Source: Octopus vulgaris
Lineage: Eukaryota
Direction of reading: 5' to 3'
DNA: 64,000 nt
Assembly: GCA_951406725.2 (NCBI GenBank)
Contig: OX597815.1
Location: 11,098,001 to 11,162,000, forward strand
In this document: positions 9,949 to 61,677 of the stretch, in pieces
Numbering within the stretch: the first letter of the stretch is position 1
Layout of the letters: each line of letters opens with the position of its first letter
Notes under the pieces: model-generated
What the model saw: only the letters and a program-made list of their open reading frames with translations
Told to the model about the DNA's origin: nothing
The model's database searches: none
Made by a program: the position numbers and the translations under genes

Positions 9949-10589
9949 TATACAACGAATTGAAGGTGGTAGAGGGTTTATACGACTAAAAAACTATGAT
10001 AAAATAACTACCATAGGTCTACAAAAATACCTAGTTCAGAAGCAAGGTTTATTGATACAAAAAACCACAAAGCACAAGCAAAACCAAAAAAAAACCTGTT
10101 TTCTGTGTTTAAGGAAGCTGAAAAATATATGAAAGAAGTAATAGTGCCTGAAAACTATGAAAAAAAAAACGAAAAACAAAAAACGGGAAACAACAAAAAC
10201 AGTAAAACTACTGAATTCCAAACTGAAACTGGAAAAAAAACTAAGTATCATGATAAAACGATGGCAAGAAAATCCCTTCAATGATAAATAATATTGGGAT
10301 AAGCTAAACAGAAAAGAAATAGATAAAGCAATATCCCAACAATGTTTGAGAATCTCAGAACTCAAAGCAGAGCCTGAAGGATTTTTAAATGAAGCACAGG
10401 TCAAATTACCAGAAACACATAATGAAGAGAAATACAAGTAACTGCAGAATATGTGGCGATGAAGAAGAAACAGTAAATCATATTGTCTTTAACTGTCCAG
10501 TCCTGGCTGAGAATTCATATAGCTACAAACATATGAATAGAGTTGGGATCAATACACACTGGAAGCCATGACAACACTATGGAATGACA

Positions 10590-10667
10590 AGCTGGCAGAA
10601 ACGTTAGCACGACGGGCGAAATGCGTAGCCGTATTTCGTCTGCCGTTACGTTCTGAGTTCAAATTCA
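10590..10667 (+). mobile_element. SINE family S3 head fragment
   Basis: GCTGGCAGAAACGTTAGCAC..GAGTTCAAATTC. Confidence 0.8.
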
Positions 10668-11940
10668 ACAACACTATGAAGGCGGAAGAAACATCACATG
10701 CACTGACGATTTTTCCAATTCTCTGCCTTCTGCCTATACTACTAATAGTAATGAAATATCCGTGTCCAGCATAGAAACGACGATAACTCAAATATGCACT
10801 GATTGAAAATCTCTCTGGTCCTTTGAGTTACCAATCTAACAGTAGTAAAACATGTTAGTTCATGTTTGTATGTATTTTGAGACTTGTTACTATGACAATA
10901 TACAAGTATAGTTTTCAGACTCATCTTTTGTGTATTTTTGTGCTTCTTTTCACTTGAATTGCTTTAATCTCCAACCTCTTTTGTTATTTTAAAATTTGCC
11001 CCACTCCAATGTTCGGTTATGGCTCATATAATCTTTCAATATGTACATTGACAACCAATACTTATGGTATTTAATAGATAAATGACAAAACTCTCTTACG
11101 AGAATATGCTAGTCTGAGAGAAATTAAACTCGAACAGAGATGCAAAGAGTAACGTATAGAATCAATTATTCTATTTCAACACACAACAGAACATCTGAAA
11201 TGGTTTAACATGAACAGGCTTTGGTATTCGACATAATATCTGTTTGACCAGGCCGTTGTTCTCATTACGAAGTTTGTAATTTTAATTAATTAGAATTTCT
11301 AGGCTCGTATATTCTGGTTCTGGGTGCTCTATACCATACAAAGAGACGGATTGGTAAAGATCAACAAGTTTTTGATCATAGATTTTTAAATTAGTGTTGA
11401 CTTTCAAGCTAGCGTACTAGATGTTGCATTGTATATCAAATACGCTAAACCCCACTTCAAGATCAAGTTTTTATACCACTAGCATTCCTGGTTAATTTTA
11501 CCCAGTCATTTTTTTCAAGTGGCCACAACACTCAGTGCCCATTCACAAACTCTATTGCAAGCGCCATTGATAAAACATAAGACTGAAAAAATAATAAAAC
11601 ATAATAAGACTGAAACATGTCAAGCGTTATCATCGTAACCGTCATGATTAAACTCACTCCCTACTTATTTGACCAGAACTAATCATTTAGAAAAAAATAT
11701 TGCCCTCCTAAATAAGCCGGTAATGTTAAATGGAATTTCTTGATTTGCTAAATTATGTATTCCAGTACCTGCTATATTATTTTGAGACAGGTGCTCCATT
11801 GGTAATTTTCTTCCCAGGTGCAAACGTGCGGAATTTTAGGTAGTAGCGATTCATTGGGTGGCGTTAAACAGTGTCGCCCGGTTTAACATAACTAGAATAA
11901 AGTGTACATCACTTCCAAAATGGTCTTAGAACCGACCTAC

Positions 11941-12060
11941 CTTTCATGTACAGTTACTGCCATTGTAGCAGTCGGGATATGTGCCTCAAGTGACGAACAC
12001 AAATGCAATATGAACATACATTATATAAGCCATGACTCACACAGTTGCTCTGTATCTAGC
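11941..12060 (-). other. Candidate 120-nt exon of an unidentified minus-strand transcript
   Basis: TTTTCAG|G acceptor and AAG|GTAGGT donor in non-repetitive DNA; no frame is open end to end, so UTR or start-containing if real. Confidence 0.3.
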
Positions 12061-12901
12061 CTGAAAACTGATAAGATACGCATAAAAACCTCACAGAAAT
12101 ACTCCTTTCTACTATAGGCAAAATCTGAAATATTATAGAGGGAAGTAGTCAATTATATCTACTCCAGCGACTCAAGTGGTACTTATTTCATCAACCCTGG
12201 AAGGATCAAAGGCTAAATAGACCTCGATGGCATTTGAACGCTGAAACCTCGCAGTAATAAAAGTGATTATTTATCTAAAAACTTAGATAATATAAAATAT
12301 GTACTATTTATAATTCCAATCGTACCCCACACCCAAAGATAGAGCCAACTTATAATAAATTCGTAAAAGATTTCTCGATTAATAAATCGCAAGTTTTCTA
12401 ATAACTGTGTATTGATATTTTCACCACAGGGACCCTCACTGGGAGACTTTTCATAGAATTTTTCACATGAAATTTTTATAGAAACTTTTCCGCAGAAAAT
12501 CACTTAATCAATAGAATTTGTTCTATATAAATTCTTATAAATTTCAATCCTTATTTACACAATGCCATAAGAATAAATGTTACTGCCAAGTTCAAGACAT
12601 TTGAAATCCGAACAGACTACATATGTGTATATAAGAAACTTTCAAATATCATATTGCCAGCCATCAGATCAACGGGAAGGAGAAACTCCGAGTAGCATCT
12701 CACACAAAGTAAAATTTGAACGAGTATAATTCCACCCTAACCAGCATTGTTCAATACTTCATTTCGTTTAGTTATATTCCAATTCGGTGAGATTCTAGTC
12801 ATTTACTCACGCGCGCACATATGCAAAAATATGTATTAATGAAATATGCGTGTGTGTGTGTGTGTGTGTTTGTGTGTGTATGTGTGTGTGTATTGGATTA
12901 C

Positions 12902-13137
12902 CTATTTCTTTAGTACCCACAAGGGACTAAAACACAGAGGAGACAAACAAGGACAGACAAACGGATTAAGTCGATTATATCGATTATACCAGTTATGCAC
13001 TGGTACTTAATTTATCGACCCCGAAAGGATGAAAGGCAAAGTCGACCTCGGCGGAATTTGAACTCAGAGCGTAACGGCAGACAAAATACGGCTATGCATT
13101 TCGCCCGGCGTGCTAACGTTTCTGCCAGCTCGTCGCC
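12902..13137 (-). mobile_element. SINE family S3 (Meta/MESC-like central domain)
   Basis: Reverse strand GTCGACTTTGCCTTTCATCCTTTCGGGGTCGATAAATTAAGTACC; tail TAAAGAAATA. Confidence 0.9.
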
Positions 13138-20584: not shown

Positions 20585-21837
20585 TTAGGTTGCTCGGAAA
20601 ATTCTGAACGTTTTTTTTTAAATGCAAAAAGGGATATAAATAATTGACCTTTCAATAACTTTTATGTAATGAAATAATTTCCCTTATCATCAATGATCTT
20701 ATCAGACAACTTAAATATTCAATCAGCTTAACATTTGACTGCTTTTGCAGAAAACAAGTTATCTAGATGCATTTTGACTCCATCCAAATCGTTAAATGCT
20801 TTACATTGCTACGAGTTCTGTAGAGACAGAAACAAGTGGTAGCCAGATGGGGCAATATCAGGAGAATATGGTAGACGGGGGTAAGAGATCCCAGCCAAGT
20901 TCATGTAACTTTGTTCGGGTAGCCAAAGACACATGTGGTCGTGCATTGTCTTTTTGGAACACTACACCTTTCCTGTTGGCAATTTCCAAACCCAGTTCTT
21001 TGAATTTTTAGTTTAAATTAGCCAGTTGACGACAGTACACATCACGATTAATGGTCTGGTTTTGTGGGAGATTACATAATAAATAATGCGTTTATGAGCC
21101 CACAAAACACAAAGCATAAGTTTTTTTAGTTGCTGTTTTGGGGGATCTTTATGCAAACTCCAGGATCTTTTTCGCACTACGTTTTCGTACACAATCCATT
21201 TTTCATCTCCAATCACAAGCTGTTTCAAAAAGAGCATGCTTTCATTTCGTTTCAGAAGCATATCACAAACAGAATACCGGGCCAAGCAATTCTTTTCTGA
21301 GTGTTTGCGAGGGACCCTTACAGTATAGCAAAAAATGTATCTTAGCTTCACTGGGTTTTCATGAACAGTACTTTTAGAAACTTCCAGCTCCTCTGCAAGT
21401 TCTCTAGTCGTGATATTTGAGTTTTCTTTGATTTTTGCCTTTAAAACATCTTCACTCAATTTTGAAGGTCTTCCACTTCGACTGTCATCTTCCAGCTTTA
21501 AACTTTGCAAACCACCTCCAAACAGGTGATTCACCTACAGCATCATCACTATAAACTTCACAAATATTTTTGCAAGCCATTGCACCATTTTCTCCTTTAT
21601 TTAACGAAAAAAAAAAGAAAAGAAATTCAACGCGAATAGGAAATGTTTGGCTATCCATTTCAAATGTCAATAAAGAGCAACTGGAATGAAAAATGAATCT
21701 ATTTTTAGTCAGGAACAAAGAAAAGATGCGCTACTACTTCAACAATAGTTTTTACAACGCCAAAGTTCTTCAGGTGTGTTCAATGAAACGTTAAAAGATT
21801 TAGCTTAAAAACACTCAGAACTTTCCGGGAAACCCAA
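20585..21837 (-). mobile_element. Near full-length mariner transposon with decayed transposase
   Basis: TA TSD; TIRs TTAGGTTGCTCGGAAAATTCTGA / TCAGAACTTTCCGGGAAACCCAA; RWFAKFK, RSGRP, GDEKW, DNARPH motifs; frameshifts. Confidence 0.92.
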
Positions 21838-21893: not shown

Positions 21894-22123
21894 TATTTCT
21901 TTACTACCCACAAGGGGCTAAACACAGAGGGGACAAACAAGGACAGACATAGGTATTAAGTCGATTACATCGACCCCAGTGCGTAACTGGTACTTAATTT
22001 ATCGACCCCGAAAGGATGAAAGGCAAAGTCGACCTCGGCGGAATTTGAACTCACAACGTAACGCAGACGAAATACCGCTAAACATTTCGCCCGGCGTGCT
22101 AACGTTTCTGCCAGCTCGCCGCC
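21894..22123 (-). mobile_element. SINE family S3 with 16-bp TSD
   Basis: TSD TATTCTGCTCAATACC at 21878-21893 and 22124-22139. Confidence 0.95.
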
Positions 22124-22807: not shown

Positions 22808-23791
22808 TAAAGCAAAACAAAAAAAAACTGTTCTCAGTATTTAAGGAAGCTGACGAATACAAACAAGAAATCATACTACCTAACAAATATGAAGAAGAAG
22901 AAGGAACAACAAAAGCTATAAAACAAATGAAATCCAAACTAAAACTAGAACAGCAACGGGCCATGATAAAACGGTGGCAAGAAAAGCAAATACTGGACTA
23001 AACTAAATGCAAAAGAAATAGACAGAAAAATCCCAGCAATGTTTGAGAAGCTCAGGATTCAAAGCAGAGACAGAGGGATTTTTAATTGCAGCACAAGACC
23101 AAAGCCTCCCCACCAGAAATTACCAAAAACATGTAATGAAAAGAAATATAACAAGTAACTGCAGAATATGTGGAGATGGACAAGAAACAATAAATCATAT
23201 TATCTCTGACTGCCACGACAGAGTTGGGATCTACATACACTGGAAGCTATGTCAACACTATGGAATAACAACAGAAAAAAGATGGTATAGGCACACACCA
23301 GAAAAGGTCACATTAAACGAGAAAGCAACCATACTCTGGGATATGCCAATACACACAGATACAGAAATTAAGGCCAAAAGGCCAGATGTGGTTGTCAGAG
23401 ATCATGAAGAAAAAAAAATGCTTCCTAATTGATGTATCAATACCAGCAGATGACAACGTGTCTCTAAAAGAAATGGAGAAAGTTTCAAAATACAAGGACC
23501 TGGAAATAGAGGTAACCAGAACGTGGAATCTAAAAACAGAAACAATTCCTATCATAGTAGGTGCATTAGGCATGACAAAAAAATATTCAGACAAATACAT
23601 AACAAAAACACCAGGACTTACAAACACATATAACATACAGAAAATTGCACTACTAGGCACTGCACACATCCTACGCAAAACACGTTCAATACAGTAACCA
23701 TCAGAGCATCACAACAAATCACAACTCATACCCAAGGTACACAGAGCTGCGCTCGGTAGTGAAGTGAAAGCACGCTATGAAAATAAAACTA

Positions 23792-26054: not shown

Positions 26055-27031
26055 CTGATTCCTCTCGTCGCTTATGCTGGTAATATCAGAAAAACAGTCG
26101 TCTATCTGATCTCTGACTTGCTTTCGTTAACCTCAAGTGAATACAGCAATCGCCATGTTTCACTTGGTCAGTGATTTCTCTCGATTACATGCCGTCAGTT
26201 TGGACTCCTCTATGAAAAAAAAGAAACTGGTGGGAACATTAACCTGCCAAAGTAATAATAAACAAAGTCCTCATCATTTTGGGAATTTTAGTATTGAAAC
26301 TGATCGGGAAATTCCAGCCAACAGACCAAATATCGAGATCAAATCATGCAGGCAAAACATACGAAGGAGCGATGCAGCTAGGCAGTCAGCAAAAAAGTGT
26401 AAATTATCCCGACCAAAAATGTGTATGAATTAGATAAATGTGTCAAGGCAAATTAACTTTAACTGAAAGCATAAAACTCAATACAGACGAACAGAGAATT
26501 ATATCAGAGTAATCCAAACAGATATCTTGAAGTAGACACAAAATGATCGAATTCAACATGCGTTAAATGAATGAGACAATTAGATTTCTTCGTGTATTTG
26601 TTGCGATATCTATTATGGTGTCTGTGCATATGCGTTGAGGCTGGATTAAATTAGCTAAAGTGATTTATTGAATGTTTTTCTAACATGATGAGATACCTAA
26701 TGACATAAAGAGGAAGTTAAATTAGCAAATGCAAGTGTTTCAGATTATTTACGGTTAGTTATGTCCTTGAATAATAAATATTAGTCTAAATAGATATGAG
26801 CAGTTCATAAGATAATATGCACAAGGCTGTATAATATTTCCATAACGGAGTATCATAAGGTGAGCGAATATGTATATGATAGACAAAATAAAGCAGAAAA
26901 GAGGTACAAAAAATTAAAAAAATGGTCAAGCTAGTCATAGAAAAAGTAAGACAGACCTAGAAGAAAACGTACGAAAATGAAAGAGATTAGATATTTTTAC
27001 AAAATAGATCTTATTTTACAGAGGAATTAAT

Positions 27032-27459
27032 GGATCCTTTCAGTTTGAACGGCAGTTTTTAAAAATAATTTCCACGTAACTAAACACTTTTAAACTTCGT
27101 ATATTGGTAGAATGTGTTTATAAAACATCTTTTTCTCTTGGCTTTATTGAGAAAATTCTATAGTTTGTAAGATATTTGTTGTTTTTTTCTTCAATTTCTG
27201 CAATTTCAACCAATCAATGACGTCTATTGAGGTAAAAAAAATAACATTCTGTGCCGTATGAATATGTCCCTCGTTTAAGAAACAGATTGGTTTTATTTAC
27301 ATTTGTGAAGAAAATAAGATACCCTTTCCCCCACCCCTAACTCTAACCCTAACCCTAAAAGAGATTGAAATGGAATAGATCGATTCTAGGGTCATAATTA
27401 TGGGTAACAATTTCATATGACACCGCTAGAAAAAACTGCCGTTCAAACCGAAAAGATCC
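27032..27459 (-). mobile_element. TTAGGG-MITE, complete, opposite orientation
   Basis: Both TIRs present; CCCTAA tract ~27334-27358. Confidence 0.93.
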
Positions 27460-27999
27460 GATATTTATACCAAATATATCTTATTTTACAGAAGAATTAA
27501 TTTGTTCCAGCTATAAAATCTTCAAAACTGGCAAACATTTCCAATGTCTTCTTGGACATTATTATGTTTGCTTGATCGTTGCTTTCACCACTTTCAAATA
27601 TGCTCTAAACCCCAAGGCTACGATACGTTAATAGTTTTTCATTTATGTCTATCTTTTCCCTTTGATTAACTTTAATATTCCTGCAACTTTCTGTTGGCAT
27701 CATTTTGTCCACCTTATTACACGTTTATGTGTGTATTGTTCACAAATTACCCGTTGAATCGATTAAACGCACAGACACACACACACATACACACACACAC
27801 ACACACGCAGACACACACAGAAACACAAACGCAGACGCACGCGCACGCACGCATACATATTTGCTTGCTGTACTATGTATGTGTATTTGTGCATATGTGC
27901 ATGAGTGCATTTCTGTGTATACAGATATATTTTCTTGTTTAAGTAGGTATATATGCATATTTTATAAAAAAAAACGTCAACAGGATTTGTTCGGTTTGA

Positions 28000-28049
<50 letters not shown>

Positions 28050-28054
<5 letters not shown>

Positions 28055-29880
28055 CTTTATTTTGGCACTACGGCCACAACACAGAGGGGACACTACAAAG
28101 AGAGACACAACACGACAGTGGGGACAAAAAACATAAAACGAATGAAAATGAGATATTATATAAAAATGAAAAATGAAATGGCTGCATGGGCTCCATTCCC
28201 ATGCAGTATCATTTGAACGTTTATATAAAATATTTACAATCGTTCTATTATCTTATTGTTTTTTTTCTTAATCTCGTTTTCTCCTCTTTTTTTTAAAATG
28301 AAACAATTTTACTTTTTTCCTTTTTTCTTCAATAAAACAACTTTAGGTTTCCTTTTTAATATCTCATGAAAGGTTCTAAATCTTTTAGCTCCACTACAGG
28401 TGGCAATTCATCACTCCTGGCAGGACAATCCCTTCTCCACACATGTCTTTTAGTCTAGTATAGGTGTCTTTGTCAACCACGGTGGTCTTCACATTCTCGG
28501 AATACACATCCGTGGGCAACTTTATACTCTTATAATATGTTAAAACTTTAATACTTTCTTTTCAGTTTCTTTGCTTTTTGCGTACGTCACAAAATGCCAT
28601 CGAAATTTTCCCTTTCTTATTTGTTTTCTCTTTTCCTGCTCCGCTCCTGGTACCTTCTTTTCTTCCACCACTCTGAACAGTCTCTCTACTTGCGTTTCTA
28701 AATTTTCTTCCTCCACCGGAACAACTTGGATCTTCACCAATGTCTCTTCCTCAAGCAACCCCTCCTTGAACACTTCTTCAAGTTCCTTTTCGCTTATTTC
28801 GTTCATTTTATCCACCAACATTATGTCTTCCTTCCTTCTGGTCTCCTCCTTTTCCATTTCTTCTTTCTTCTTTTTCTGCTTCTCTGGCGGAGAGCTAACT
28901 CTCCCACTTCTCTTTCTTTTCTTTAACACCGTGAACCCATCCTCCGTTGCTTTCTCCTTTATCTCAACCTGTATCACCTGGTCTGTGCTCTTCTGCCTCT
29001 CCGTCTGCTCTATTTGTTGTTCTCTCTGGGGGCACCTGGCCTTCATGTGGCCCTTTCCACCCACATGTATAACATACAGGCAGCCTGCTCTCCACAACCA
29101 CTCTCAAACTTACGTCATCGGCGGCACTATCTCTTCGACAACTCTGTTTAGGTCTTCACTGTTGCTTGAACGCTTAACTCTATTCCATACCCCCGGTAGT
29201 TAACTGTTTGGGTTCTTGTGGCCTTCATTATCTTGGCCTCCACACTCATGTCATGCATTGTGTCTGTCATCAGCCATACTTCTATCAGTTCTGGGGGCAC
29301 TTTGCCAACTCGCACCCTGGTCACACGTTTGCCACAGTACAATGGCAAAAGTACCTATTTTTCCGATCTTATTGCCTCCGTAGAGTACTTAATTGCTTCC
29401 TCTTCTGATGCAAAATGCCCCTCCACATTAGCGTACTTTCTCCCTCTTGTTATAAATGTGGTTAGTCTTTTTATATTCTTCAGACAGTCTTCAATAGCCT
29501 CAATTGTTGCTATTTCTATTTTCCCCGTTGCCATCTTCGTTGTCTTGTATATCATCATTCTTCTCATTACGTTGGTTGTAAGTTCCACAGGTGGCGTTAA
29601 TTTCAGTGTATTTCCGTCTCTTTCCAGTAACTTCTCGCATTCCTTCATTTTTCCTTGTTCAACCTTTATTTCACGTGCTTCCAGCGTTTCCGAGTCTATC
29701 ACTTTTCCAGTTGTAGCCGCATAGCTGTGGTCACCTGCTGGCGTTTTCTCCATTTTTCCCACAATGGGGGAAAAAAACAACAATTCAAAATAACAATTTG
29801 AACAGTAACAATCAATCAAACAAATACTTAATACTATGACTTACGTCTAACACGACAAAAAACAACTGAAACCGCCTGTG
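28050..29880 (-). mobile_element. ORF1(gag-like)-only retroelement A, frameshifted ORF 29753->28356
   Basis: MEKTPAGDHSYAA, TRGRKY, RVRVGKVPPE, knuckle CL..H..KGHMKARCP, K/E-rich tract, DELPPVV then stop, ~300 nt UTR ending TAAAGAAATA. Confidence 0.75.
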
Positions 29881-29915
29881 ACACAAACCTCCAGCCAAGG
29901 CAACACCAACGTCCT

Positions 29916-31613
29916 TATTTCTTTAATTAGGCACAAGGCCTCAATAGAGAAGGGACAACACAAAAACAGACAAAACAATACATTGGGGCACATAGAAACA
30001 CATATCGAATGAATTATGGATATAATGAAAATGAGAATGTAAAGGCTTACCTACCATCCATAAGCAGGTAGTTCCATATTACTGTTTTTGAATGAACAAT
30101 TCATATCGGTCTTGTATCTCTCGGCTTATAACATATACTCTATTAACTCTTCGAAGGCCACCACCGGCGGCAATTCGTCGTAACCAATTTGTATACCTGT
30201 CATCTCTATTATTTCGCCAAACAACTCCTTTAGTTTCTCTCCTCTTTCTTTTCTAACAAAACAGCTTTGAAACCTTCGTTCTACTCTTTGGCCGCTAATT
30301 TCACTCTGATAATGTTCTTCAACTTGGCAATTCTCTTCTCTATCTCTACACTTTTTGGGTATTGTGCCACTGTTCTTACGTTTTTTTTCTTTTGGGTGTC
30401 ACTCTCCTTCTCTCTTCATCAATCCTCTCATCTGCCGCTGGCATTCCTATCTCTGTCTGTCTATCATTCTGTGTTACTATCATCTCTCTTTCATTTTCCT
30501 TTCTCTTCTGTACTTTCCCTCCTTGCTAGTTGATGGTCTCTGCGTTCGCTCCTCACTTACTTTTGTTGTCTTTTCATTTTTTCTCTTCTCATTTGTATTC
30601 TCTTGTTTTTCACACTGCTTCTCCTCTCCACTTGCCTTTATTTTCTTCCTCGAACATTTTGGTGGTTCTTTCTTTATACCACTGTATATTGCTCTTCCAT
30701 TTTCTTCTTCTCCTCCACGGTTGCGTAATCTCCCAGCTATTCCTTCCCTGTCTCCTCCTCTCTATGTTTCTGGGGACACTTAGCTTTCATGTGTCCCCTT
30801 ACTTCACAAAGAAAACATAGAGGCGGTCTTCCTTCCACCACTATTCTCAACCGTGCTTCGTCTGGCAGTATCAGTTCTTCTGCTATCTTGAGGAGGTCTG
30901 GCAAGTTTATATGAACCAATACCTGTAGTCCATACCCCCAACAGTTCACCTCCGATAATTTTAATATTTCAGTGTCTTCCTCTGTGTTGAAGAGGATGGC
31001 TGCAACTAACCACGCTTTATCAATTTCTGGAGGAACTCTACCCATTCTTACTCTGGCCGCACGTTTGCCACAGTAAGTCGGTAGTAGTGTCCACTCTGCT
31101 GATCTCAAAGGCACAGTAGATTATTTTCTCGATTCTTCACTCACGAAGCGTACCTCCACTGTGCTGTATTTCCTTCCTCTGGTGTAATATGTCGTTACAT
31201 TCTTAATTTCTCTCAGGAACTCCTCGACCGCTTCCACCGCTGCTATTTCCAACTTTTTTTATGCAATATTCAATGTTCTGTACACAATTGTTTCGTTCTC
31301 CGTTTTTCTAACACTTCTTTGGGAGCCGTCAGCCTCAGGCTATCTCCCACCTTTCTCAATAAATCGTTATGTTTCTTGAAATTTTTCTCCTGTAATTTCT
31401 GCAGTACTTCCGCTGACAGGCTTTTGCCAGTCACCGCAGCATAACTGCCCGCTTGCACTGGTGTACCTTCCATATTGTTCACAACTTCACGCATAAATAG
31501 TGAAGAAAATTTAAAAAACGGTAACAACAATCAAACAATTCAGTAAATAACAGTAAAACAATAACAGTACTCTCATGGAGCGTATGCACTTACGACTCAA
31601 CAGGTTCAAATAA
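29916..31613 (-). mobile_element. ORF1(gag-like)-only retroelement B, frameshifted ORF 31473->30126
   Basis: MEGTPVQAGSYAA, TRGRKY, RVRMGRVPPE, CFLCEVRGHMKAKCP (CX2CX4HX4C), DELPPVV then stop, UTR ending TAAAGAAATA; TSD-like AACACCAACG. Confidence 0.8.
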
Positions 31614-31623
31614 AACACCAACG

Positions 31624-31940
31624 ACAACGTCAACCTCCTCTCAACGATTGGCCGGAGATGATTTTTAAAATGAGAATATCTGAAATAAACTCGACTGCTC
31701 TTACGAGAACACTAAAAATGAACCCAACCGTTCTCAAAAATTAAGTAAAAAAAAATCTAGAATCCTTGTCCGATACCTGATCGATCCCCAAATCTAATCA
31801 GTTCGTGCCAGTCACGAGGCCAAACATCCTTGAGAGTTTCATCCGAATCCATCCAGTGGTTCTTGAAATATCTTGGACATGGACAAAAAAATACAACTGA
31901 AAACAATGCCTCCGACCTCGCTATGGTGGAGGTAAAAAGC
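31624..31940 (+). mobile_element. Helentron/DINE-like non-autonomous element; its left end is at 29881-29914
   Basis: Homologous to 55478-55688 and 56336-56532; terminal hairpin CCTCC..GGAGGTAA. Confidence 0.55.
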
Positions 31941-32059
31941 AACGCCACTACTCGTATACATGAAAATAACAATTTCTAAACATACGTAGTGCAACACACA
32001 CACACGCACGCACGCATTTGCACGCGCGCACACAAAACATTTGAAATGATGAAATACGT

Positions 32060-32442
32060 TAGGAAATAAATAAGAATTATATCGCAGTAAGATGAGTTCT
32101 TGTCACGAAAGATGTTAACTACTGTGTGAGGGTTGGTGTTGGAATATTAGTTGATGCAAGAGTAGTTAGTCGGCACTAAGCTGTCAGCTCTGAGCTGATT
32201 GTAAACTGACTCCTTCACGTTTAAGTTTTTTATCAGCAAAATCTTGAAAACCTTTCTCTTTAGCACTTTAGCAATATTCTTTGAAATCAGATTAAGTGGA
32301 GTTGGAATTTCCACATTACCATTTGTTTTCTCAGTTTTTTTGTTTTTGTTCTAACAACATCGACTTCTCTTTCGATAAACTTTCTCAATGGGACATCAGC
32401 AACTCAACCACATCATCTTGTATGACTTCTTCAAACCCTACA
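32060..32442 (-). pseudogene. Tigger/pogo-like transposase C-terminal remnant
   Basis: GVGFEEVIQDDVVELLMSH*ESLSKE..LLEQ resembles the acidic Tigger C-terminus. Confidence 0.55.
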
Positions 32443-32982
32443 CCATCTGCAATGTGGGTTTCTACCGAACGGCTACTGTCACAACTTTGGAGAGTACAGC
32501 TGTCAGCCGAATAGATTATTAAGATCGTTTCGCTGTCGCCACTAAAAGGACAAGAGAAATTCTGCTTTCTAGCCGTAATAGCCATAGCGAAAGAGATGAT
32601 ATGGAAAACACTTGGAAGAGGTATCGCATCAGGCACCTTCGTCTCCGGGCATGCTTTGGTTAACCTCTTTTTATATCACCTAAGAAGGAAAGCATGTCTG
32701 GAGAAGAAATGCCTGACGGCAAAACTGTACCAAAAGGGATGGAAGAAAGTAGCCCAAATGTTGGGTATGTAAGCACCTGATTAAGCGGAGTAAAAACAAA
32801 GGGACGAAGTAAGCGGTTTAACGCAAGAATGTAGTTGGTGGGGTCATTAATTTTCTGTTTTTCATTTTCATCTGAAATTATAATGTATTTATTCATATAT
32901 GTAATATCATTCGATAAGCCCCCGACCCCATTTGTCTCGTGTATTGTTCCCACATCGCTTAACCCTTGTGGTTTGAATAAAA
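32443..32982 (+). mobile_element. Tx1/L1-like LINE 3' end (ORF2 C-terminus plus UTR)
   Basis: ERLLSQL..FLAVIAIAKEMIWKT..SGHALVNLFLYHLRRK..LYQKGW; UTR ends CCCTTGTGGTTTGAATAAA; CCATCT on both sides. Confidence 0.6.
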
Positions 32983-33130
32983 TCCATCTTGCTAGTCCCG
33001 CACTTTATGAGCTGGAGTTCAAAGTTTACAGTTCGAGTTAGCGTGTTGGATTGTTGGTTCTTAAAAAATTGTTGTCATATTCCGTGTGGTTACTGCCGTT
33101 TGTTTCGATTATATTGTTATTACACTGTAG

Positions 33131-33362
33131 GGCCACGAGCTGGCAGAAACGTTAGCACGCCGGGCGAAATGCGTAGCCGTATTTCATCTGCCGTTACGTT
33201 CTGAGTTCAAATTCCGTCGAGGTCGACTTTGCCTTTCATCCTTTTGGGGTCGATAAATTAAGTACCAGTTACGCACTGGGGTCAATGTAATCGACTTAAT
33301 CTCTTTGTCTGTCCTTGTTTCTCCTCTCAGTGTTTTGCCCCTTGTGGGTAGTAAAGAAATAT
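33131..33362 (+). mobile_element. SINE family S3 with ~18-bp TSD
   Basis: TSD ATATTGTTATTACA(C/T)TGT. Confidence 0.93.
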
Positions 33363-33936
33363 ATATTGTTATTACATTGTGTATTCTTAGGTAATTGGGT
33401 TGGTTTCCTGCCAATTTGAAAGCCCGTAGAGATAGTTGTAAATACGCAGTTCATTGACATCCGAACTAGGCTGTTTATCACTATCTCTTACTTGATGGCA
33501 TTTTTGCGCGCGTGTGCCTGATTTCTGAATGCAGAGAAAGGGAGAGAGAGAGAGAGAGAGAGAGATGAGTGTGAAATATGTATTGGGAGAGAAGGCATGT
33601 GTGGGAGAGAGACGGAGAGAATAAAGTAATTTTGATTGTCACTCTATTTGTATTTTATATCATTAAATGAAATTGAAAACAAATAGAGAGTATAAGCAAA
33701 ATACTTTTGGCAGCCTAATTGGTGTCCGATTAAAAATATTTACGCTAACTAATTCAACGACTTCTCGTCATATGTAAACAGAAACTACCTTAGTAGATTT
33801 ATTGATCTATCTTCAAATGTAAACAAAATTTATCAGACATTTCACTACATTAGATAGTTTCACTAATTTACAAAAATTGAGTACATACATTTATTGAGGC
33901 TTAGCATTACTAAACGTTTTTGTCTAGCGAAAAATA

Positions 33937-34389
33937 GGATCTTTTCGGTTTGACCGGCAGTTTTTTCTAGCGGTGTCATATGAAATTGTCACCCATCATT
34001 ATGACCCTAGTTTCGATCTATTGCATTTCAATCTGTTTTAGGAATAGGGTTAAAGTTAGGGTTAGTTAGGGTTCGGGTTCGGGTTAGGGGTGGGGGAAGG
34101 GTATCTTTTTTTTCTTCAGAAATGTAAATAAACCGAATCTGTTTCTTACACGAGGGACCTAATCATACGGCACAGACTGTTTTCACCTCAATAGACGTCA
34201 TTGATTGGTTGAAATTGCAGAAATTAAAATAAAAGAAAACAACGAATATCTTACAAACTATAGAATTTTCTCAATAAAGCCAAGAGAAAAAGATGTTTTA
34301 TAAACACATTTTACCAGTATACGAAGTTTAAAAGTGTTTAGTTACGTGGAAATTATTTTAAAAAACTGCTGGTCAAACCGAAAAGATCC
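33937..34389 (+). mobile_element. TTAGGG-MITE, complete, 8-bp TSD
   Basis: TSD GAAAAATA at 33929-33936 and 34390-34397. Confidence 0.95.
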
Positions 34390-34539
34390 GAAAAATATAA
34401 TAGCGAGTATTTTGTATTTTATAATTTCTATCTTTGAAGAGGGTAATAAGGGGTACTCCTTCCAAACTTCTTTTCATTTATATTTCAGATGATGCAGATG
34501 GAAATATATATGTGAGTGATATATTAGTTTCAAATTTTG

Positions 34540-34712
34540 ACACGGAACCAACAATTTCGGATGAATGGGTAAGTCGATTACATCGACCCCAATGCTCAAC
34601 TGGTAATTATTTTATCAATCCCAGCGGCATTTGAACACAGAACGTAAAGTTGGGAAAAGTGCCGCGAAGTATTTTATCCAGCGCGATAACAATTCTGCCA
34701 GCTTGCCACTTT
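34540..34712 (-). mobile_element. Old S3-related SINE
   Basis: AGTCGATTACATCGACCCC..ATTTGAACACAGAACGTAA..TTCTGCCAGCT. Confidence 0.6.
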
Positions 34713-34874
34713 ATATGTGAATGATATATTGATATATAATATTATTTTACTTAGAAATCATCCCCAAAATTCAGTTTATTCCAGTTTCTTTGCAAATATC
34801 TTAAAGGAATTTTAGGAACTGTATTACGTACACACATACGCACAGACTCATCCAAGCATACATACATACATACA

Positions 34875-34907
<33 letters not shown>

Positions 34908-34908
34908 G

Positions 34909-34946
<38 letters not shown>

Positions 34947-34976
34947 CAGTATATATTATATATATATATATATAAG

Positions 34977-35110
34977 TGAAGGCGCATGGATCAGTGGTTA
35001 GAGCGTCGAGCTTACGATCGTGAGATTGTGAGTTCGAATCCCGGACCGGGATGCGTGTTGTGTTCTTGAGCAAGATACTTTATTTCACGTTGCTTCAGTT
35101 CAGTAGCCTT
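34977..35110 (+). mobile_element. SINE family S4
   Basis: A box TGGATCAGTGG, B box GTTCGAATCC, ACG anticodon-like loop. Confidence 0.82.
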
Positions 35111-35164
35111 GACTTGTTCGTGCACGACTGCAATGCACTGGTCGACCGATTCAATTTCAAAAAA

Positions 35165-35280
35165 TGATCCCTCCCGGGCCAACCTCACCCGTACTGAATC
35201 GTTCACCCTTCGCGATCTCCGTCGACGCGATGACATCATCAAGCCGGCAGACAAAGGTGGAGCGGTGGTTGTGTGGCTTC
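35165..35280 (+). pseudogene. Penelope-like RT N-terminal fragment
   Basis: NLTRTE..LRDLRRRDDIIKPADKGGAVVVW. Confidence 0.75.
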
Positions 35281-35329
35281 CCCCGCTACAAGCCACTTGA
35301 TGCAACCCTTAGGCATCTGTCTGCTGACC

Positions 35330-35862
35330 AGCGTTGCCATGTGTGATCGTACTGTCACGCGTTGTATCTTTGTTTCGCAGTGCTTCTCCTCTCTGGCTAA
35401 AACGAACTCTGTTTTCTGCTGGGGATAACGGCAGCCAAAATCGTTTTCATGCTTCAAACAGCTTTCAAGAACGGTGCCATGAGCAAAACACAAGTCTACA
35501 AGTGTGGTTTTCACGCTTTAGAAATGGTCACTTGTCGCTTGAGGACCAACCTCCTTCAGTGCGACCGCCGACCTCTCGAACGAATGAAAGCATGAAAGTT
35601 CATGAACTGATCTTGGAGAACCGTCGTCGGACAATTGACGAACTTGTTGATACGATTGGTGTGTTCTGGAGCTCCTGCCGACGAATTTTGAGTGAGGAAT
35701 CGCAAATGAAAAGGGATGCAGCAAAATTCGTGCCTCGCATGCTCACGGAAGATCAAAAGCAGTTACGACTGAGTGCGTGTCATGAATTGAAAGGACAGCT
35801 GGAAGTTGATCCGGACCTTTTTTCCAAAGGTCATCACTGGTGATGAAAGCTGGTGCTACAGA
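35330..35862 (+). pseudogene. Mariner transposase N-terminal fragment
   Basis: WFSRFRNG..LED..RP, RRRTIDEL, KFVPRMLT, VITGDESWCY. Confidence 0.88.
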
Positions 35863-36125
35863 ATCTGCAGAATCCTGGGTCGCTTCTTTCAGATTGGCTA
35901 TGTCCATTCCAGTATCACTCCTGATGGTGTCAAGCCAGCGGGTTCTTGGTCGGCCTCTTCCTCTCTTGCCACTGACCATTCACATCATGATGTCCTTCTC
36001 CAGGGATTTTCTCCGCATAATATGCCAATCTATGCTTGGTGATCCTAGCTTCTAGTGATATTTTCGGCCTGATCTGCTTAAGAACTTCTCCATTGGTGAG
36101 CCTCGCTATCCATGGAATCCGATAA
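35863..36125 (-). pseudogene. RTE-clade LINE C-terminal fragment
   Basis: RIPWIARLTNGEVL..GKRGRGRPRTRWLD. Confidence 0.85.
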
Positions 36126-39710: not shown

Positions 39711-39930
39711 TATTTCTTTACTACCCACAAGGAGCTAAACACAGAGGGGACAAACAAGGACATACAAACGGATTAAGTCGATTATATCGACCCCAGTGCG
39801 TAACTGGTACTTAATTTATCGACCCCGAAAGGATGAAAGGCAAAGTTGACCTCGGCGGAATTTGAACACAGAACGTAACGGCAGACGAAATACGGCTACG
39901 CATTTCGCCCGGTTCTGCCAGCTCGCCGCC
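39711..39930 (-). mobile_element. SINE family S3 with 15-bp TSD
   Basis: TSD AATATAATTGATATA. Confidence 0.92.
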
Positions 39931-40432
39931 TTAATATAATTGATATAGGCTGTATTTTATCGTTACAATGTAAGATACAAGTTGAACTTCTTCGAGTTGC
40001 TGTTCCATAATGGTTATTTGAGGTAGTATTATCCATTCTGTAGGTAGTTAAGGTCATCTGTATGTGACTAATAGGAAATGAACGGAAGAAGGTAAGACAA
40101 AGGGTAAAAGAATTAATCTTTCTGTGTAGAGAGGATGAAAGTTGTATAGTCGCGCAAGTGACAAGGCATTACTGAAATGAGAAAAGGTAGATATACTTTT
40201 CCATTGAGGAGGCCAAGTGAAAGAAATAGAATTGAATTTGGGTCCTGTATTTATATTTTTTTCTTAACTAAATTATGTCAGGCTGAGCAAAAGATAGTTC
40301 ATTTGTTATCTGCCTTGAGCTTAATCTAGCACGAAATGGTTTCAGGTTAACAGTTGACTCCCAAGTTTCCAAGAGCTGATATTCCGTGTGTAATAGGAAG
40401 GAACTCATAGAGAACTCTAGATTGGGTTTTGA

Positions 40433-42243: not shown

Positions 42244-42536
42244 TAGATGCTTTCGTTTCAAGATGCTTCATCTTTTCAATCTCTTCTTAGTTTTTAGTAT
42301 TTACTCAGCTTTAGAAACTCTTTCGTCGATATAACTTTGTCTTACAGAATAACTCGTGTCATGTCATTCAATCTCATTTCTATTGTCCCTGTTGGTAGCT
42401 GCGCTTTTTATTATTACGCACACACACACTTACACACATACACACGCACGCACACACATTCAATGTTTTGTTCCGTGCCGTCCATCCATAATAATGTTTT
42501 TTCTCTCGATGTAAACGCTTAGTGATCAATAAAGAA

Positions 42537-42553
42537 ACCACCTCCAACACCAA

Positions 42554-44026: not shown

Positions 44027-45588
44027 GGATATGCTCAATCACCTTCCTGAAACAATAAACAAAAACACCCTACTAGTATCCTTCGATATAGTCAACCTAT
44101 ATTTTAATATCTCCCACAACCTAGGAATAGAGGCAATCCAATTCTGGCTAGAGAATTACGCCAACAAACTCTCACATCACATCAAAAAAGAATTCGTGGT
44201 AGAAGAGCTAAAATTTATCTTGGAGAATAACTACTTCGTGTCCGAAGACAACTTCTATCGACATAAATCGGAGACTGATATGAGTACAAGGCGGCGAGCT
44301 GGCAGAAACGTTAGCACACAGGGCGAAATGCTTAGCGGTATTTCGTCTGTCGTTGCGTTCTGAGTTCAAATTCCGCTGAGGTCGACTTTGCCTTTCATCC
44401 TTTCGGGGTCGATAAATTAAGTACCAGTTACGCACTCGGGTCAATGTAATCGACTTAATCCGTTTGTCTGTCCTTGTTTGTCCCCTCTATGTTTAGCCCC
44501 TTGTGGGTAATAAAGAAACAGATATGAGTACAAGAATGACCCTCACCTTTGTTAATCTAGTCATGGGATATCTAGAAATTAGACTTTCTGGTAAGGTTTT
44601 AGAAAAATACAGCAGCCCATTCTCCTCGTACATTGAAAATAACTGGAAGAGATACCTGGATGACTGTTTCATTCTTTGGCATGAAAGTATAGAGAAACTT
44701 AAAGATTTTCAAGCATTCGTAAATGGACTTGACGTGAACATTCAATTCACGATGGAATATTGCCATGAACAGCTTCCCTTCTTCAACATCCTCATTAAGA
44801 AATCTAACAACGTAATAGAAACAGATATATACTATAAACCCACGGACTCCAAGCAATATCTACTGTTCAACACATGCCACCCCAGACACAACAGAATGAA
44901 TATCCCCTTCAACCTAGCAAAAAGGATATATACTATAGTTTCTAATGCAAGCACCAGAGACACACGACTAGATGAACTAAAGGATACACTCATCACCAGG
45001 AACTACCCACCTTCACTAATTGACATATGCTTTCAACGTGCCCTACAACTCAACATCCACGAACTCAGACATCCCATATTAAAGAAGGATTTACAACCAA
45101 AAGCCCTGCCATACATCTCCACACACAACACTCTTAACAATGAAGCCTTCGACACCGTCCTTCAAAATATTCCCCTGCTAAAAATGGACCACAAAATGAA
45201 ATTAATCCTCCAAACGCACACCATCATAAAAAGCAAAAGACAGCCCGAATCCATGAAAAGTCTCCTAACAGAATCCCGAATACACTCAATAACAACACTG
45301 AAGCTGTCAGTAAAAAAATGCAGAAGACCCAACTGTGGGATATGCGTCCATTTAATTGAGGGATCAGAGTTCTCCTTCAAACAGGGACAACGTTTCACAG
45401 TGAAAAGCAGCTTCACATGTTCTTCGGAGAACCTGACATATGCACTAACATGCTCTGGGTGTCAAGAGCAATACAGAGGCCAAACCCAAAAAGGTTTACG
45501 TCAAAGGATGGCTCTGCACAGATCCCAGATCAAAATTCCCAAAAACAAAAATAGCATTCAGCCCACACATCGACATTTGAACCAATAA
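44027..45588 (+). pseudogene. Penelope-like element (Neptune-type) RT plus GIY-YIG endonuclease
   Basis: LVSFDIVNLY, WKRYLDDCF, TDIYYKPTD..CHP, Cys linker CRRPNCGIC, FTCSSENLTYALTCSGCQEQYRGQT..LRQRM..H. Confidence 0.92.
44290..44520 (+). mobile_element. SINE family S3 inserted in the Penelope RT, 14-bp TSD
   Basis: TSD GATATGAGTACAAG at 44277-44290 and 44521-44534. Confidence 0.95.
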
Positions 45589-50979: not shown

Positions 50980-51872
50980 TTGACTCCGGGAGGATGATAA
51001 GCAAAAATCGAACCCAGAGGGATTTCAACGGAAAACATAAAAACATAATTAAGTCCAGTGCTTTATTGATCGCCAAAATCAGTGCTAACAATAAATAATT
51101 ACTATTTCCAACAGTAGCATTCTGCGCACATTTTAATGGGTAGTGGTGATGGCGGTATTATTGATTAAATGATTCCAGTGTTTACTGGTATTTATATATA
51201 TGTTTTCGATCCCGCGAGGATGAAAGGTAAAAATGGATACCAAAGGAATTTGAACTTAGAAAATAATGGAACATAATCTAAGTATTGGAAATAACAGTAA
51301 AAGTCATTGATTTCCTCACCACCGAAATCAGTGCCAGTACAATCCTTTCTACTCTCAGCAGAAGGTCTGAAAACCGAAGGAAGGAACCAATCGATTACAT
51401 TGTTACTTATTTTATCTCCGACAGAATGAAAAGCAAAGTCAATTTTGGAAAGGCAGCAAGTCGATTACATCAACTCCATTATATAACTAATACTTATTTT
51501 ATCGACCCCAAAAGGACAAAAGGCATAGTCGACCTCGGCGGAATTTGAACTCAGAACGTAAAGGCGGACGAAATGCTGCTAAGCATTTTGTCCGGCGTAC
51601 TAACGATTCGGCCAACTGCTTAATGTCAGTAATAATAATAGTTCTTTCTATTACAGGCTCAAGGCCTGAAACGTAATGCTGAGAGGAAGGATAGTCGATA
51701 GCATCGACCCACCCCACCACGTCCTTAACTGGTACTTGTTTTATGGACCTCGTAAAGAATAAAAAGCAAAATCGATTTCGATGGAATTTGAACTCGGAAC
51801 GTTAAGACTGGCGAAATGTGCCGCAAAGTATTTTGTCCATTTTTGCTGACGATCACGCCAGCTCGCTGCCTT
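50980..51872 (-). mobile_element. Cluster of old, co-oriented S3-related SINE remnants
   Basis: Repeated ATCGACCCC..GGATGAAAGG..GGAATTTGAACTC motifs and TTCTTTCTA..AGGCCTGAAA tails. Confidence 0.65.
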
Positions 51873-51959: not shown

Positions 51960-52191
51960 GGCGGCGAGCTGGCAGAAAAGTTAGCACGCCGGGCGAAATG
52001 CGTAGCGGTATTTCGTCTGCCGTTACGTTCTGGGTTCAAATTCCGCCGAGGTCGACTTTGCCTTTCATCCTTCCGAGGTCGATAAATTAAGTACCCGCTA
52101 CGCACTGGGGTCGATGTAATCGACTTAATCCGTCTGTCTGTCCTTGTTTGTCCCCTCTATGTTTAGCCCATTGGTGGGTAGTAAAGGAATA
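51960..52191 (+). mobile_element. SINE family S3 with 19-bp TSD
   Basis: TSD TATAATCAAGTCT(C/T)GAAAG. Confidence 0.93.
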
Positions 52192-55477: not shown

Positions 55478-55688
55478 TAAGAGCACTCAGCGCAAATCTC
55501 CGCCAAGACTACACCAACGTCCTCTCAACGATTAATCGGAGATGGTTTTTAAAATGAGAATATCTGAAATAAACTCGACTACTCTCACAAACGAAAAAAC
55601 TAAAAATGAACCCGACCGCTCTCAAAAATTAAGTGAAAAACCGGAAAAATAATCCAGAATCCTTGTCCGGTACCTGATCGATCCCAAC
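55478..55688 (+). mobile_element. Helentron/DINE-like element, left part
   Basis: AAGAGCACTCAG..CTCCGCCAAG start; matches 31630-31790. Confidence 0.6.
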
Positions 55689-60454: not shown

Positions 60455-61446
60455 TTGCGTACATAGGTATATACAGAGAAACATATACATACTACACTCG
60501 TGCGCGCATACACGAGAATACAATACATTCACAGAAATTTAAGTCTTGCTAACAATATTTATTTCCCATTTATCCATTTATGATTAATGTTATTTTATTA
60601 CATGCCTATTAAAAACAAAATCCATTTCAGTTTTCTGTCAGCTTTTCCTTCGCTAATTATTTAATTTTTCTTGGAGTTGTCAAGATTTATATCGTTAAAA
60701 ACACACACACACGCACACACACAAAAGATGAATTAGTGTTACGAAAATCTATTCGCTGAATTCGTGATAATGAACAATTAAAATGTTTTAAAATAGGGTA
60801 TTTGGCTGAGAGTGGGGGTGATGGTTTATGGCGGCGTCGGCGGGGATGAAGAAAGTTGCTACAATAACTGAAAAGGAAAAAGACACATCTATTAAAGGAC
60901 AAAGAGATATACGAATAAAACGAACTTAGCAAAATATGAAATAATTATCTGCATATTTCTTAACAACTACAACCAAAACGTGAAAGAATACACCTACAGC
61001 AGTTAAATCAACAAGAACAACGATATCATTGTGATAATGAATATCTTGAAGGAAGAAGGGGAAATAATTCATATTCGTTCATTCTATATTTTTGTTGATG
61101 GTAAGAAAAAGTTGGTGTTATATTTTCTCCTATTATATGTACTTTTGGAAGGGTCGCTGAGTTGAATGTTAACAAAAACGGTATGTATTTGATCTATGCC
61201 TTAATGAAACTATGTAACCCATAATTACATGGAAGTTACTAATCCCATAACTCTGATGAAAGAATAAGGAGCTTAGAAATGATCAGGTCCATCGAAAAAT
61301 TGGAATCAGTATTGTTCGATGGAAAAGTAGGTAATGTGTGTACAAACTTGAGAGTACATTATGGCTGATTAACGATATACGGTGTCCCTACTAGCAATTA
61401 ATATGTACGGACCGGGTGCCAAGAATGTGCTTAAATGTGCTTTTAA

Positions 61447-61677
61447 GGCGGCGAGCTGGCAGAAACGTTAGCACACCGGGCGAAATGCTTAGCGGTATTT
61501 CGTCTGCCGCTGCGTCCTGAGTTCAAATTCCGCCGAGGTCGACTTTGCCTTTCATCCTTTCTGGGTCGTTTAAATAAGTACCAGTTACGCACTGGGATCG
61601 ATATAATCGACTTAATCCATTTGTCTGTCTTTGTTTGTTGTCCCTGTGTTAAGTCCCTTGTGGGTAGTAAAGAAATA
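61447..61677 (+). mobile_element. SINE family S3
   Basis: Full-length; AAGAATGTGCTT on both sides. Confidence 0.92.

What the first reader, a model, noticed from the sequence alone, without database searches (positions are those of the whole stretch)
32443..33362. Similar 3' tail links a Tx1-like LINE, the ORF1-only elements and the S3 SINE
Seen: S3 tail TTTGTCTGTCCTTGTTTGTCCCCTCT..CCCTTGTGGGTAGTAAAGAAATA; element B tail TTTGTCTGTTTTTGTGTTGTCCCTTCT..GGCCTTGTGCCTAATTAAAGAAATA; old S3 tails AGGCCTTG.GCCT..TAGAAAGAA; LINE remnant tail TTTGTCTCGTGTATTGTTCCC..CCCTTGTGGTTTGAATAAA. S3 TSDs of 12-19 bp fit APE-type TPRT. Inference: a three-tier system (autonomous LINE, half-LINE, SINE) using one tail-recognition signal, unusual because L1-group elements are best known for relaxed poly(A) recognition.
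Basis: partly seen in the sequence, partly recalled or inferred. Interest (0 to 1): 0.7.

Follow-up and report, generated by a model that had tools for sequence, protein, structure and literature searches.

The report
Octopus retroposons share a hairpin tail
In this octopus-type genome a very common short repeat, two jumping genes that encode only an RNA-binding protein, and the stump of a long jumping gene end in related tails with a small predicted RNA hairpin whose loop stays nearly fixed while the stem letters change in pairs, so they likely share one copying enzyme that would pick its RNA by that hairpin instead of a poly(A) tail.

Summary
The observation largely holds. The S3 SINE tail is clearly homologous to the tails of two tandem ORF1-only elements (0 of 3000 shuffles each; the best two non-S3 hits in the window). 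The LINE remnant alone is weaker (1 of 3000, but level with window background). In four public runs, however, its family's commoner letters match S3 at five more sites (26 of 28 instead of 21). All tiers can form a 4-bp stem around a CUUGU-type loop, with four different self-pairing stems; the hairpin is thermodynamically weak. S3 has 10-19 bp TSDs (7 of 7) and no poly(A). Caveats: no RT was recovered, so 'Tx1' rests on a recalled C-terminal motif and on type I ORF1s in the neighbours. The LINE family does not end in TAAAGAAATA, so S3's direct partner is probably a sister family. Best reading: stringent, hairpin-based template recognition by an L1/Tx1-group LINE lineage serving LINE, half-LINE and SINE (0.55). 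The mechanism is known from L2 elements; for the L1 group my searches found tail-sharing pairs only in plants and a green alga. This scan has already noted the same system on other DNA of this and other octopus-like genomes.

The parts
32384..32984 (+). 3' remnant of a LINE: degenerate ORF2 C-terminus (about 32400-32770, frameshifted; stop at 32512-32514) plus 3' UTR. L1/Tx1-like by a recalled motif only; 5' limit approximate.
   Evidence: Translation. Multi-copy in 4 runs, and 32513 reads C in most other copies, so the stop is private. The family-conserved 3' UTR block is 32858-32984.
32944..32984 (+). LINE tail shared with S3; predicted stem AACC/GGUU (32961-32964, 32970-32973) around loop CUUGU (32965-32969)
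   Evidence: 21 of 28 letters equal the S3 majority in this copy. The commoner letters of other copies at 32948, 32952, 32954, 32956 and 32958 all equal S3.
32985..33128 (+). Sequence that also follows the LINE tail in other copies, running into a separate, more abundant repeat (about 33008 onward) that hosts the S3 insertion; likely the LINE's target or the next unit of a train
   Evidence: Loose-end consensus behind 32984 in run X2 equals window 32986-33015 at 22 of 30 letters (counted by eye). Summed depth is about 9,000-13,000 against about 1,600 at the tail in runs X1 and X2.
33130..33361 (+). S3 SINE, full length: A-/B-box-like head, shared core ending TAATCGACT, tail ending TAAAGAAATA with stem GCCC/GGGU and loop CUUGU at 33341-33345; TSD 33110-33128 / 33362-33380
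   Evidence: over 200,000 contigs laid per run on the stretch that holds it
29916..31614 (-).
   Evidence: (homologue aligns to its last residue about 215 nt before the end)
28051..29876 (-). ORF1-only element 2, head to tail behind element 1 (about 40 nt of host-like sequence between them; 5' end uncertain by a few bases): broken ORF1 ending about 28359, tail with stem UGGC/GCCA and a 6-nt loop CGUAGU, then (TA)n; no TSD found
31618..31945 (+). Host repeat of the two ORF1-only elements, with a 3' hairpin at about 31909-31932; looks like a non-autonomous Helentron-type element (label recalled, not tested)
   Evidence: Other copies at 55481-55685 and 56335-56520 show the uninterrupted site
21894..22123 (-). 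S3 copy, TSD 16 bp
44290..44520 (+). S3 copy, TSD 13 bp
51960..52191 (+). S3 copy, TSD 18 bp (1 mismatch); loop region altered
39711..39931 (-). S3 copy, TSD 15-17 bp
12903..13137 (-). S3 copy, TSD 10 bp
61446..61677 (+). S3 copy, TSD 11-13 bp
51643..51872 (-). 'Old S3': same head and core (76% to the young majority), different proximal tail, same terminal hairpin type (CAGGC/GCCUG, loop CUUGA), then ATT-type repeats
   Evidence: loose ends behind 33296 in 4 runs show this alternative tail

Best explanation
The S3 SINE, the two ORF1-only elements and the LINE remnant end in homologous, poly(A)-free tails that are predicted to fold into a 4-bp hairpin with a CUUGU-type loop, and the ORF2 protein of a likely L1/Tx1-group LINE lineage likely binds that hairpin to choose its template and copies all three kinds of RNA by target-primed reverse transcription. 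Shown: tail homology, paired stem changes, ORF1 without ORF2, S3 TSDs. Inferred: (1) the ORF1-only elements arose by loss of ORF2 and kept the tail; (2) S3 gained the tail by a template switch just after its core, where old and young S3 part; (3) the loop gives specificity and the stem only shape, as in zebrafish ZfL2 (PMC4176376); (4) S3's direct partner is probably a sister LINE family ending TAAAGAAATA, not the family of this remnant.
For: Tail scores: 0, 0 and 1 of 3000 shuffles; RLE-LINE controls not significant. In 4 runs with 4 organism labels and 4 studies, contigs spanning LINE-only 3' UTR and tail carry S3 letters at 5 sites where this copy differs, e.g. 32952 A>T in 14, 13, 7 and 8 contigs at 86-93% of depth (S3 letters). 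Only 60-79 contigs were laid per run, so these are not S3 pieces. Stems GCCC/GGGU, AGGC/GCCU, UGGC/GCCA and AACC/GGUU pair 4 of 4 only with their own partner, 1-3 of 4 crosswise. RNAalifold predicts only this hairpin on 10 tails; 2 of 4 pairs change on both sides. 8 of the 14 CTTGT sites with 4 or more flanking pairs are these tails; 6 of the other 129 sites. ORF1 is RRM-like + CCHC, the type I ORF1 linked to Tx1 in non-mammalian animals (PMC5203782, passages). O. vulgaris has recently active L1-Tx1 families (PMC13282606, Table 1). TSDs of 10-19 bp in 7 of 7 S3 copies.
Against: No RT or endonuclease was recovered, and the remnant's clade is unconfirmed (searches gave nothing usable; model pLDDT 56). 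This LINE copy's tail score is level with two other window places, and LINE versus ORF1-only similarity is weak (47 and 722 of 3000; over 140 nt 32 and 233 of 2000). One family-majority change (32937) moves away from S3 in the TTTGTC-anchored alignment. The LINE family's last about 12 nt differ from TAAAGAAATA, and its copies continue into a shared downstream sequence, so its true 3' end is not fixed. The hairpin is weak: it is in the minimum-energy fold of 5 of 8 tails, not of the LINE copy, and with flanks its pair probability is 0.06 or less in 5 of 10. Loop positions were chosen after looking, and one loop has 6 nt. The stems represent only 3-4 independent lineages. 3 of 4 old-S3 tails are not significant.
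Confidence: 0.55

Rival explanations
1. The tails are homologous by descent (S3 captured the 3' end of an ORF1-only or LINE RNA once), but the hairpin is kept for RNA 3'-end formation or stability, and the RT is not tail-specific.
For: A polyadenylation-type hexamer follows the hairpin in the three protein-coding elements (ATTAAA, AATAAA, AATAAA). The stem is weak. No binding data.
Against: No poly(A) follows, and the elements end within about 6 nt of the hexamer. S3, likely a Pol III unit, keeps the hairpin with its own stem. Old and young S3 keep the terminal hairpin although the proximal tail differs.
Confidence: 0.2
2. Stringent recognition is right, but the partner LINE is not L1/Tx1 (another clade with a type I ORF1), which would make this an ordinary SINE/LINE pair with a half-LINE.
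For: Clade unconfirmed here. RRM + CCHC ORF1s are not limited to Tx1 (established knowledge). Known mollusc SINE partners are CR1, CR1-Zenon, L2 and Nimb (PMC11481361, passages).
Against: The C-terminal pattern (AK..IWK followed by F/L...E...W helices) fits what I recall of L1/Tx1 ORF2. TSDs of 10-19 bp and site-specific tandem insertion are Tx1-like (PMC4494074). The RLE-LINE ends in the window do not match.
Confidence: 0.13
3. S3 and the ORF1-only elements form a real pair of passengers, but this LINE remnant's family plays no part in their movement; its resemblance is old shared ancestry or TG/pyrimidine-rich convergence.
For: Window-scan rank 5 among non-S3 places; weak direct similarity to the ORF1-only tails; different terminus.
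Against: 5 of 5 family-majority letters in the 28-nt block match S3. Identical loop with its own paired stem.
Confidence: 0.12

Closest known systems
Stringent L1-clade pairs: maize LINE1-1_ZM with ZmSINE2/3; Chlamydomonas L1-1_CR with SINEX-3_CR (PMC3472496 part 1 of 3; PMC3747384 passages and tables)
   Same: L1-group LINE and tRNA-type SINE share about 45-50 terminal nt with a hairpin whose stem shows compensatory changes and whose loop is conserved.
   Different: Here it is an animal; there is no poly(A) or poly(T) end; an ORF1-only tier shares the tail; the clade is not confirmed by RT.
UnaL2/UnaSINE and zebrafish ZfL2-1/ZfL2-2 stem-loop recognition (PMC4176376 passages; PMC1636434 search listing only)
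   Same: Short 3' stem-loop; swapping the stem is tolerated while the loop gives specificity, which matches a fixed loop with variable stems.
   Different: L2 clade, tested by assay, with terminal short tandem repeats; here the function is untested and the loop is CUUGU.
HAL1 (half-L1), Ag-Sponge, HeT-A: ORF1-present non-autonomous LINEs (PMC5753468, PMC5786205 passages)
   Same: ORF1 kept, ORF2 absent, LINE-type 3' end.
   Different: Type I (RRM-like + CCHC) ORF1, tail shared with a SINE, tandem insertion into a host repeat.
Crocodilian Tx1-Mar with SINEU (PMC4494074 part 1 of 5, section 16, passages)
   Same: Tx1-type LINE proposed as SINE partner in an animal; insertion into another transposon.
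   Different: That link rests on shared targets; no LINE sharing the SINEU-1 3' end was found. Here the link is the tail.
Octopus tRNA-derived SINEs OK, OR1, OR2 (Ohshima and Okada 1994; seen only as a citation)
   Same: Abundant octopus SINEs with tRNA-like heads; S3 may be one of them.
   Different: Could not compare: SINEBase supplements unavailable.

Membership tests
tRNA-derived SINE (S3) | Short (<700 bp), non-coding, many dispersed copies | tested here: met
   About 232 bp, 7 full copies in 64 kb; over 200,000 contigs laid per run
tRNA-derived SINE (S3) | [quoted passage not shown] | tested here: inconclusive
   A-/B-box-like motifs visible, but ARAGORN found no tRNA and Rfam gave no tRNA hit in 27000-36000
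tRNA-derived SINE (S3) | Target-site duplications | tested here: met
   10-19 bp in 7 of 7
ORF1-only non-autonomous LINE (HAL1-like) | LINE-type ORF1 present | tested here: met
   244 homologues at E<=0.001. 7 of 10 looked up are Octopus and 1 is Argonauta. CCHC-type knuckle hits in 13 of 20. Model pLDDT 88.5, nearest folds RRM-type but none at E<=0.001.
ORF1-only non-autonomous LINE (HAL1-like) | No ORF2 between ORF1 and the 3' end | tested here: met
   Homologues align to their C-termini about 215 and 310 nt before the ends
ORF1-only non-autonomous LINE (HAL1-like) | Moves as a family of its own, not a one-off deletion | tested here: inconclusive
   Two divergent members share the layout and a 140-nt 3' region (0 of 2000 shuffles); other loci could not be read (no genome)
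Tx1 clade (LINE remnant) | RT domain groups with Tx1/L1 | not testable with these tools
   No RT in the remnant; no genome held; protein searches empty
Tx1 clade (LINE remnant) | APE endonuclease plus ORF2 C-terminal zinc-finger region | tested here: inconclusive
   No Pfam or PDB hit; atlas hits only unnamed eukaryotic clusters; resemblance recalled only
Tx1 clade (LINE remnant) | Frequent target-sequence preference | tested here: inconclusive
   Copies in 3 of 4 runs continue into similar downstream sequence: a target, or a longer 3' end
Stringent SINE/LINE pair | Shared 3'-terminal sequence | tested here: met
   S3 with ORF1-only elements fully; with the LINE family over 28 nt (26 of 28) but not the last about 12 nt
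Stringent SINE/LINE pair | 3' stem-loop with compensatory changes | tested here: met
   weak energy and few independent lineages
Stringent SINE/LINE pair | Tail required for retrotransposition or bound by ORF2 | not testable with these tools
   Needs an assay

The most novel reading that the evidence does not exclude
An animal L1/Tx1-group reverse transcriptase selects RNA by a CUUGU pentaloop hairpin, with no poly(A), and supports a whole guild: autonomous LINE families, ORF1-only half-LINEs and two generations of the genome's dominant SINE, each with its own stem sequence around one loop.
Probability: 0.45. Interest if true: 0.65.

Novelty: new variant of a known kind. Interest (0 to 1): 0.5.

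Why it matters
How LINE proteins moved from strict tail recognition to relaxed poly(A) recognition is an open question. Ohshima's survey found only 3 L1-tailed SINEs among 58 pairs, all in plants or a green alga (PMC3472496). An animal L1/Tx1-group case with natural stem swaps around one loop gives ready-made mutants for testing whether strict recognition is ancestral in this group. It would also name the engine behind one of the most abundant repeats of octopus genomes.

Tried and rejected
No whole genome was held, so full-length LINE recovery, RT phylogeny and age profiles could not be run. The tail pattern found 0 stretches in viral contigs and 2 in metagenome contigs; both have no similarity to the window and are chance hits. 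ORF2 remnant searches: 0 of 49 and 0 of 2 candidates scored; no Pfam family; unnamed atlas clusters only; nothing in PDB sequences or among the 151 fetched proteins; single-sequence model too poor to search (pLDDT 55.7). The search for ORF1-ORF2 fusions covered only proteins of 1508-4305 aa and found none of 4266 candidates, which is uninformative. No RNA holder was listed. No TSD was found for the LINE remnant or element 2. The idea that the S3 tail derives from the window's RLE LINEs is rejected. The S3 body domain could not be named: supplements unavailable or without a match (one file not searched in each of the last two). Rfam hits were microsatellite noise.

Full report
Setting. The window is repeat-rich animal DNA. 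Of 10 ORF1 homologues looked up, 7 are labelled Octopus (bimaculoides, sinensis, vulgaris), 1 Argonauta and 2 are unnamed, so the genome is octopus-type. No assembly was available; evidence from outside the window comes from contigs of coded public runs and protein searches.

Anatomy. S3 is a SINE of about 232 bp with 7 full copies in the window, 92-98% identical to their majority over head and core. All 7 have TSDs of 10-19 bp and none has poly(A). Five older relatives share head and core (69-81%) but diverge right after TAATCGACT; loose ends behind 33296 in 4 of 4 runs show that alternative tail as a family. Their broken ORFs match a large protein family (244 hits) with a CCHC knuckle and a confident model whose nearest folds are RRM-type, none at E<=0.001. 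Homologues align to their last residues about 215 and 310 nt before the element ends, leaving no room for ORF2. The pair sits in a repeat whose empty site is seen at 55481-55685. The LINE remnant (about 32384-32984) is multi-copy in 4 of 4 runs and its stop codon is private. Its protein found no named relative; the Tx1/L1 label is my recall of the C-terminal motif.

Is the similarity more than chance? Against the 7 S3 tails, the ORF1-only tails score z 10.1 and 8.5 (0 of 3000 shuffles each) and the LINE copy z 6.0 (1 of 3000). Two RLE-LINE ends are not significant, and 1 of 4 old-S3 tails is (6 of 3000). Scanning 21,314 windows against 4 of the 7 S3 tails puts the ORF1-only tails directly after S3, but the LINE copy fifth among non-S3 places, level with background. 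The ORF1-only elements share 140 nt (0 of 2000), while LINE versus each is weak (32 and 233 of 2000). So in the window alone the LINE link is the weak one.

Other copies strengthen it. In 4 runs (4 organism labels, 4 studies; 60-79 contigs laid per run), contigs that span LINE-specific 3' UTR and tail mostly read C at 32948 (56-95% of depth) and T at 32952, 32954, 32956 and 32958. All five are the S3 majority letters, raising the match over 32944-32971 from 21 to 26 of 28. One change upstream (32937) moves away from S3. The family's pieces stop at 32982-32984, so it ends AATAAAATC, not TAAAGAAATA. Loose ends beyond that point resemble the window's own downstream sequence (22 of 30 letters for run X2, counted by eye), and the next repeat is several times more abundant. 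This suggests a preferred target or a train, but it leaves the exact 3' end open.

Structure. Each tier can form a 4-bp stem around the same loop: S3 GCCC/GGGU, element 1 and old S3 AGGC/GCCU, element 2 UGGC/GCCA (6-nt loop), LINE AACC/GGUU. Arms pair fully only with their own partner. RNAalifold on 10 tails returns only this hairpin, with 38 of 40 cells paired and double-sided changes in 2 of 4 pairs. Of 137 CTTGT sites in the window, 14 have 4 or more flanking pairs; 8 are these tails, against 6 of the other 129. Against it: the hairpin is in the minimum-energy fold of 5 of 8 tails, slipped in one, and absent in the LINE copy and one old copy. Pair probabilities with flanks are 0.06 or less in 5 of 10. 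Only 3-4 stems are independent, and the loops were chosen after looking.

Mechanism. Shown: homologous poly(A)-free tails, paired stem changes, ORF1 without ORF2, TSDs. Inferred: ORF2 of a LINE lineage binds the hairpin and primes reverse transcription at the nick; half-LINEs keep ORF1 and the tail; S3 took the tail by a template switch after its core. The pattern of fixed loop and exchangeable stem is what assays showed for zebrafish ZfL2 (PMC4176376, passages). Because S3 and the half-LINEs share the last 10 nt and this LINE family does not, the direct partner is probably a sister family. Ages are roughly compatible but only loosely measured: S3 copies are 87-92% identical to the 33k copy, and LINE contigs differ from this copy at about 13-15% of sites.

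Comparison with what is known. Stringent tails are standard for L2, CR1, RTE and other clades. For the L1 clade, Ohshima lists three SINEs, in maize/sorghum and Chlamydomonas (PMC3472496 part 1 of 3; PMC3747384 passages and table). Tx1-Mar/SINEU is an animal Tx1 partnership without a shared tail (PMC4494074 part 1 of 5, section 16, passages). HAL1, Ag-Sponge and HeT-A are the ORF1-only precedents (PMC5753468, PMC5786205, passages). Bivalve SINE partners are CR1, CR1-Zenon, L2 and Nimb, with no mention of Tx1 in the main text (PMC11481361, passages). The O. vulgaris annotation lists 13 recently active L1-Tx1 families; 'tail' and 'partner' do not occur in its main text (PMC13282606 part 1 of 3 and term search). 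Seven searches listed no paper on an animal L1/Tx1 LINE sharing its tail with a SINE. The library lacks most subscription papers, Repbase and the 1994 octopus SINE paper, and unseen supplements may bear on S3's identity.

Earlier notes of this scan describe the same tail sharing, the CUUGU hairpin and intact Tx1-like partners on other DNA. I use them as leads, not support. The Helitron-type host was their lead; the hairpin was recorded here before I saw those notes.

Verdict. A real feature and a new variant of a known kind. Tail homology is solid for SINE and half-LINEs and good for the LINE family; stringent recognition by an L1/Tx1-group enzyme is likely but untested (0.55). Interest 0.5.

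Noticed in passing
window 33362, 21893, 44521, 52192, 39710, 12902, 61678 (starts of S3 TSDs): 6 of 7 S3 TSDs begin N-R-T-A (TATA, GGTA, GATA, TATA, CATA, GGTA; exception AGAA); RTA occurs at about 4-6% of positions. Suggests a weak target preference or 3' microhomology priming; the motif was chosen after looking.
   Followed up: partly
window 33179-33195 within S3: In 4 of 4 runs the S3 end (33361) is joined to positions 33179-33195 of another S3-type head in dozens of contigs (33, 19, 31 and 17 in X1), and two of these joints show G or GGTA between: S3 appears to pile into one site of its own head. Only 15 of 759 joints were shown.
   Followed up: partly
window 31618-31945 (+), 55481-55685 (+), 56335-56520 (+): Helentron-like non-autonomous repeat with a 3' hairpin; it hosts the two ORF1-only elements near its 5' end, with a duplicated target around element 1.
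   Followed up: partly
window 32985-33128 and 33381-33540: An abundant unclassified repeat follows the LINE tail here and in other loci; no second copy in the window.
   Followed up: partly
window 32240-32383 and 32096-32143: Moderately multi-copy stretches upstream of the LINE remnant with no recognisable ORF on either strand.
   Followed up: partly
window 29925-29932 (-), 28058-28063 (-), 32976-32981 (+): A polyadenylation-type hexamer (ATTAAA or AATAAA) follows the hairpin in the three protein-coding elements, yet no poly(A) follows.
   Followed up: no
window 4997-6394, 7037-7744, 22926-23697 and further fragments: Several RLE-type LINE fragments (Dong/R4- or Hero-like, label recalled); the two 3' ends read finish in (AAT)n.
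   Followed up: partly
window 62070-62134 (-) and 42493-42540 (+): Two places with faint likeness to the tail (TTGTGGG after a pyrimidine run; AATAAAGAAAC) but no element recognised upstream.
   Followed up: partly
window 44497-45588 (+), 21013-21534 (-), 35328-35843 (+): ORFs resembling Penelope-type and mariner-type elements (labels recalled from motifs).
   Followed up: no
protein P0042: An O. bimaculoides predicted protein in which this ORF1 family interrupts an RGS domain, probably a gene model that swallowed an intronic element.
   Followed up: no
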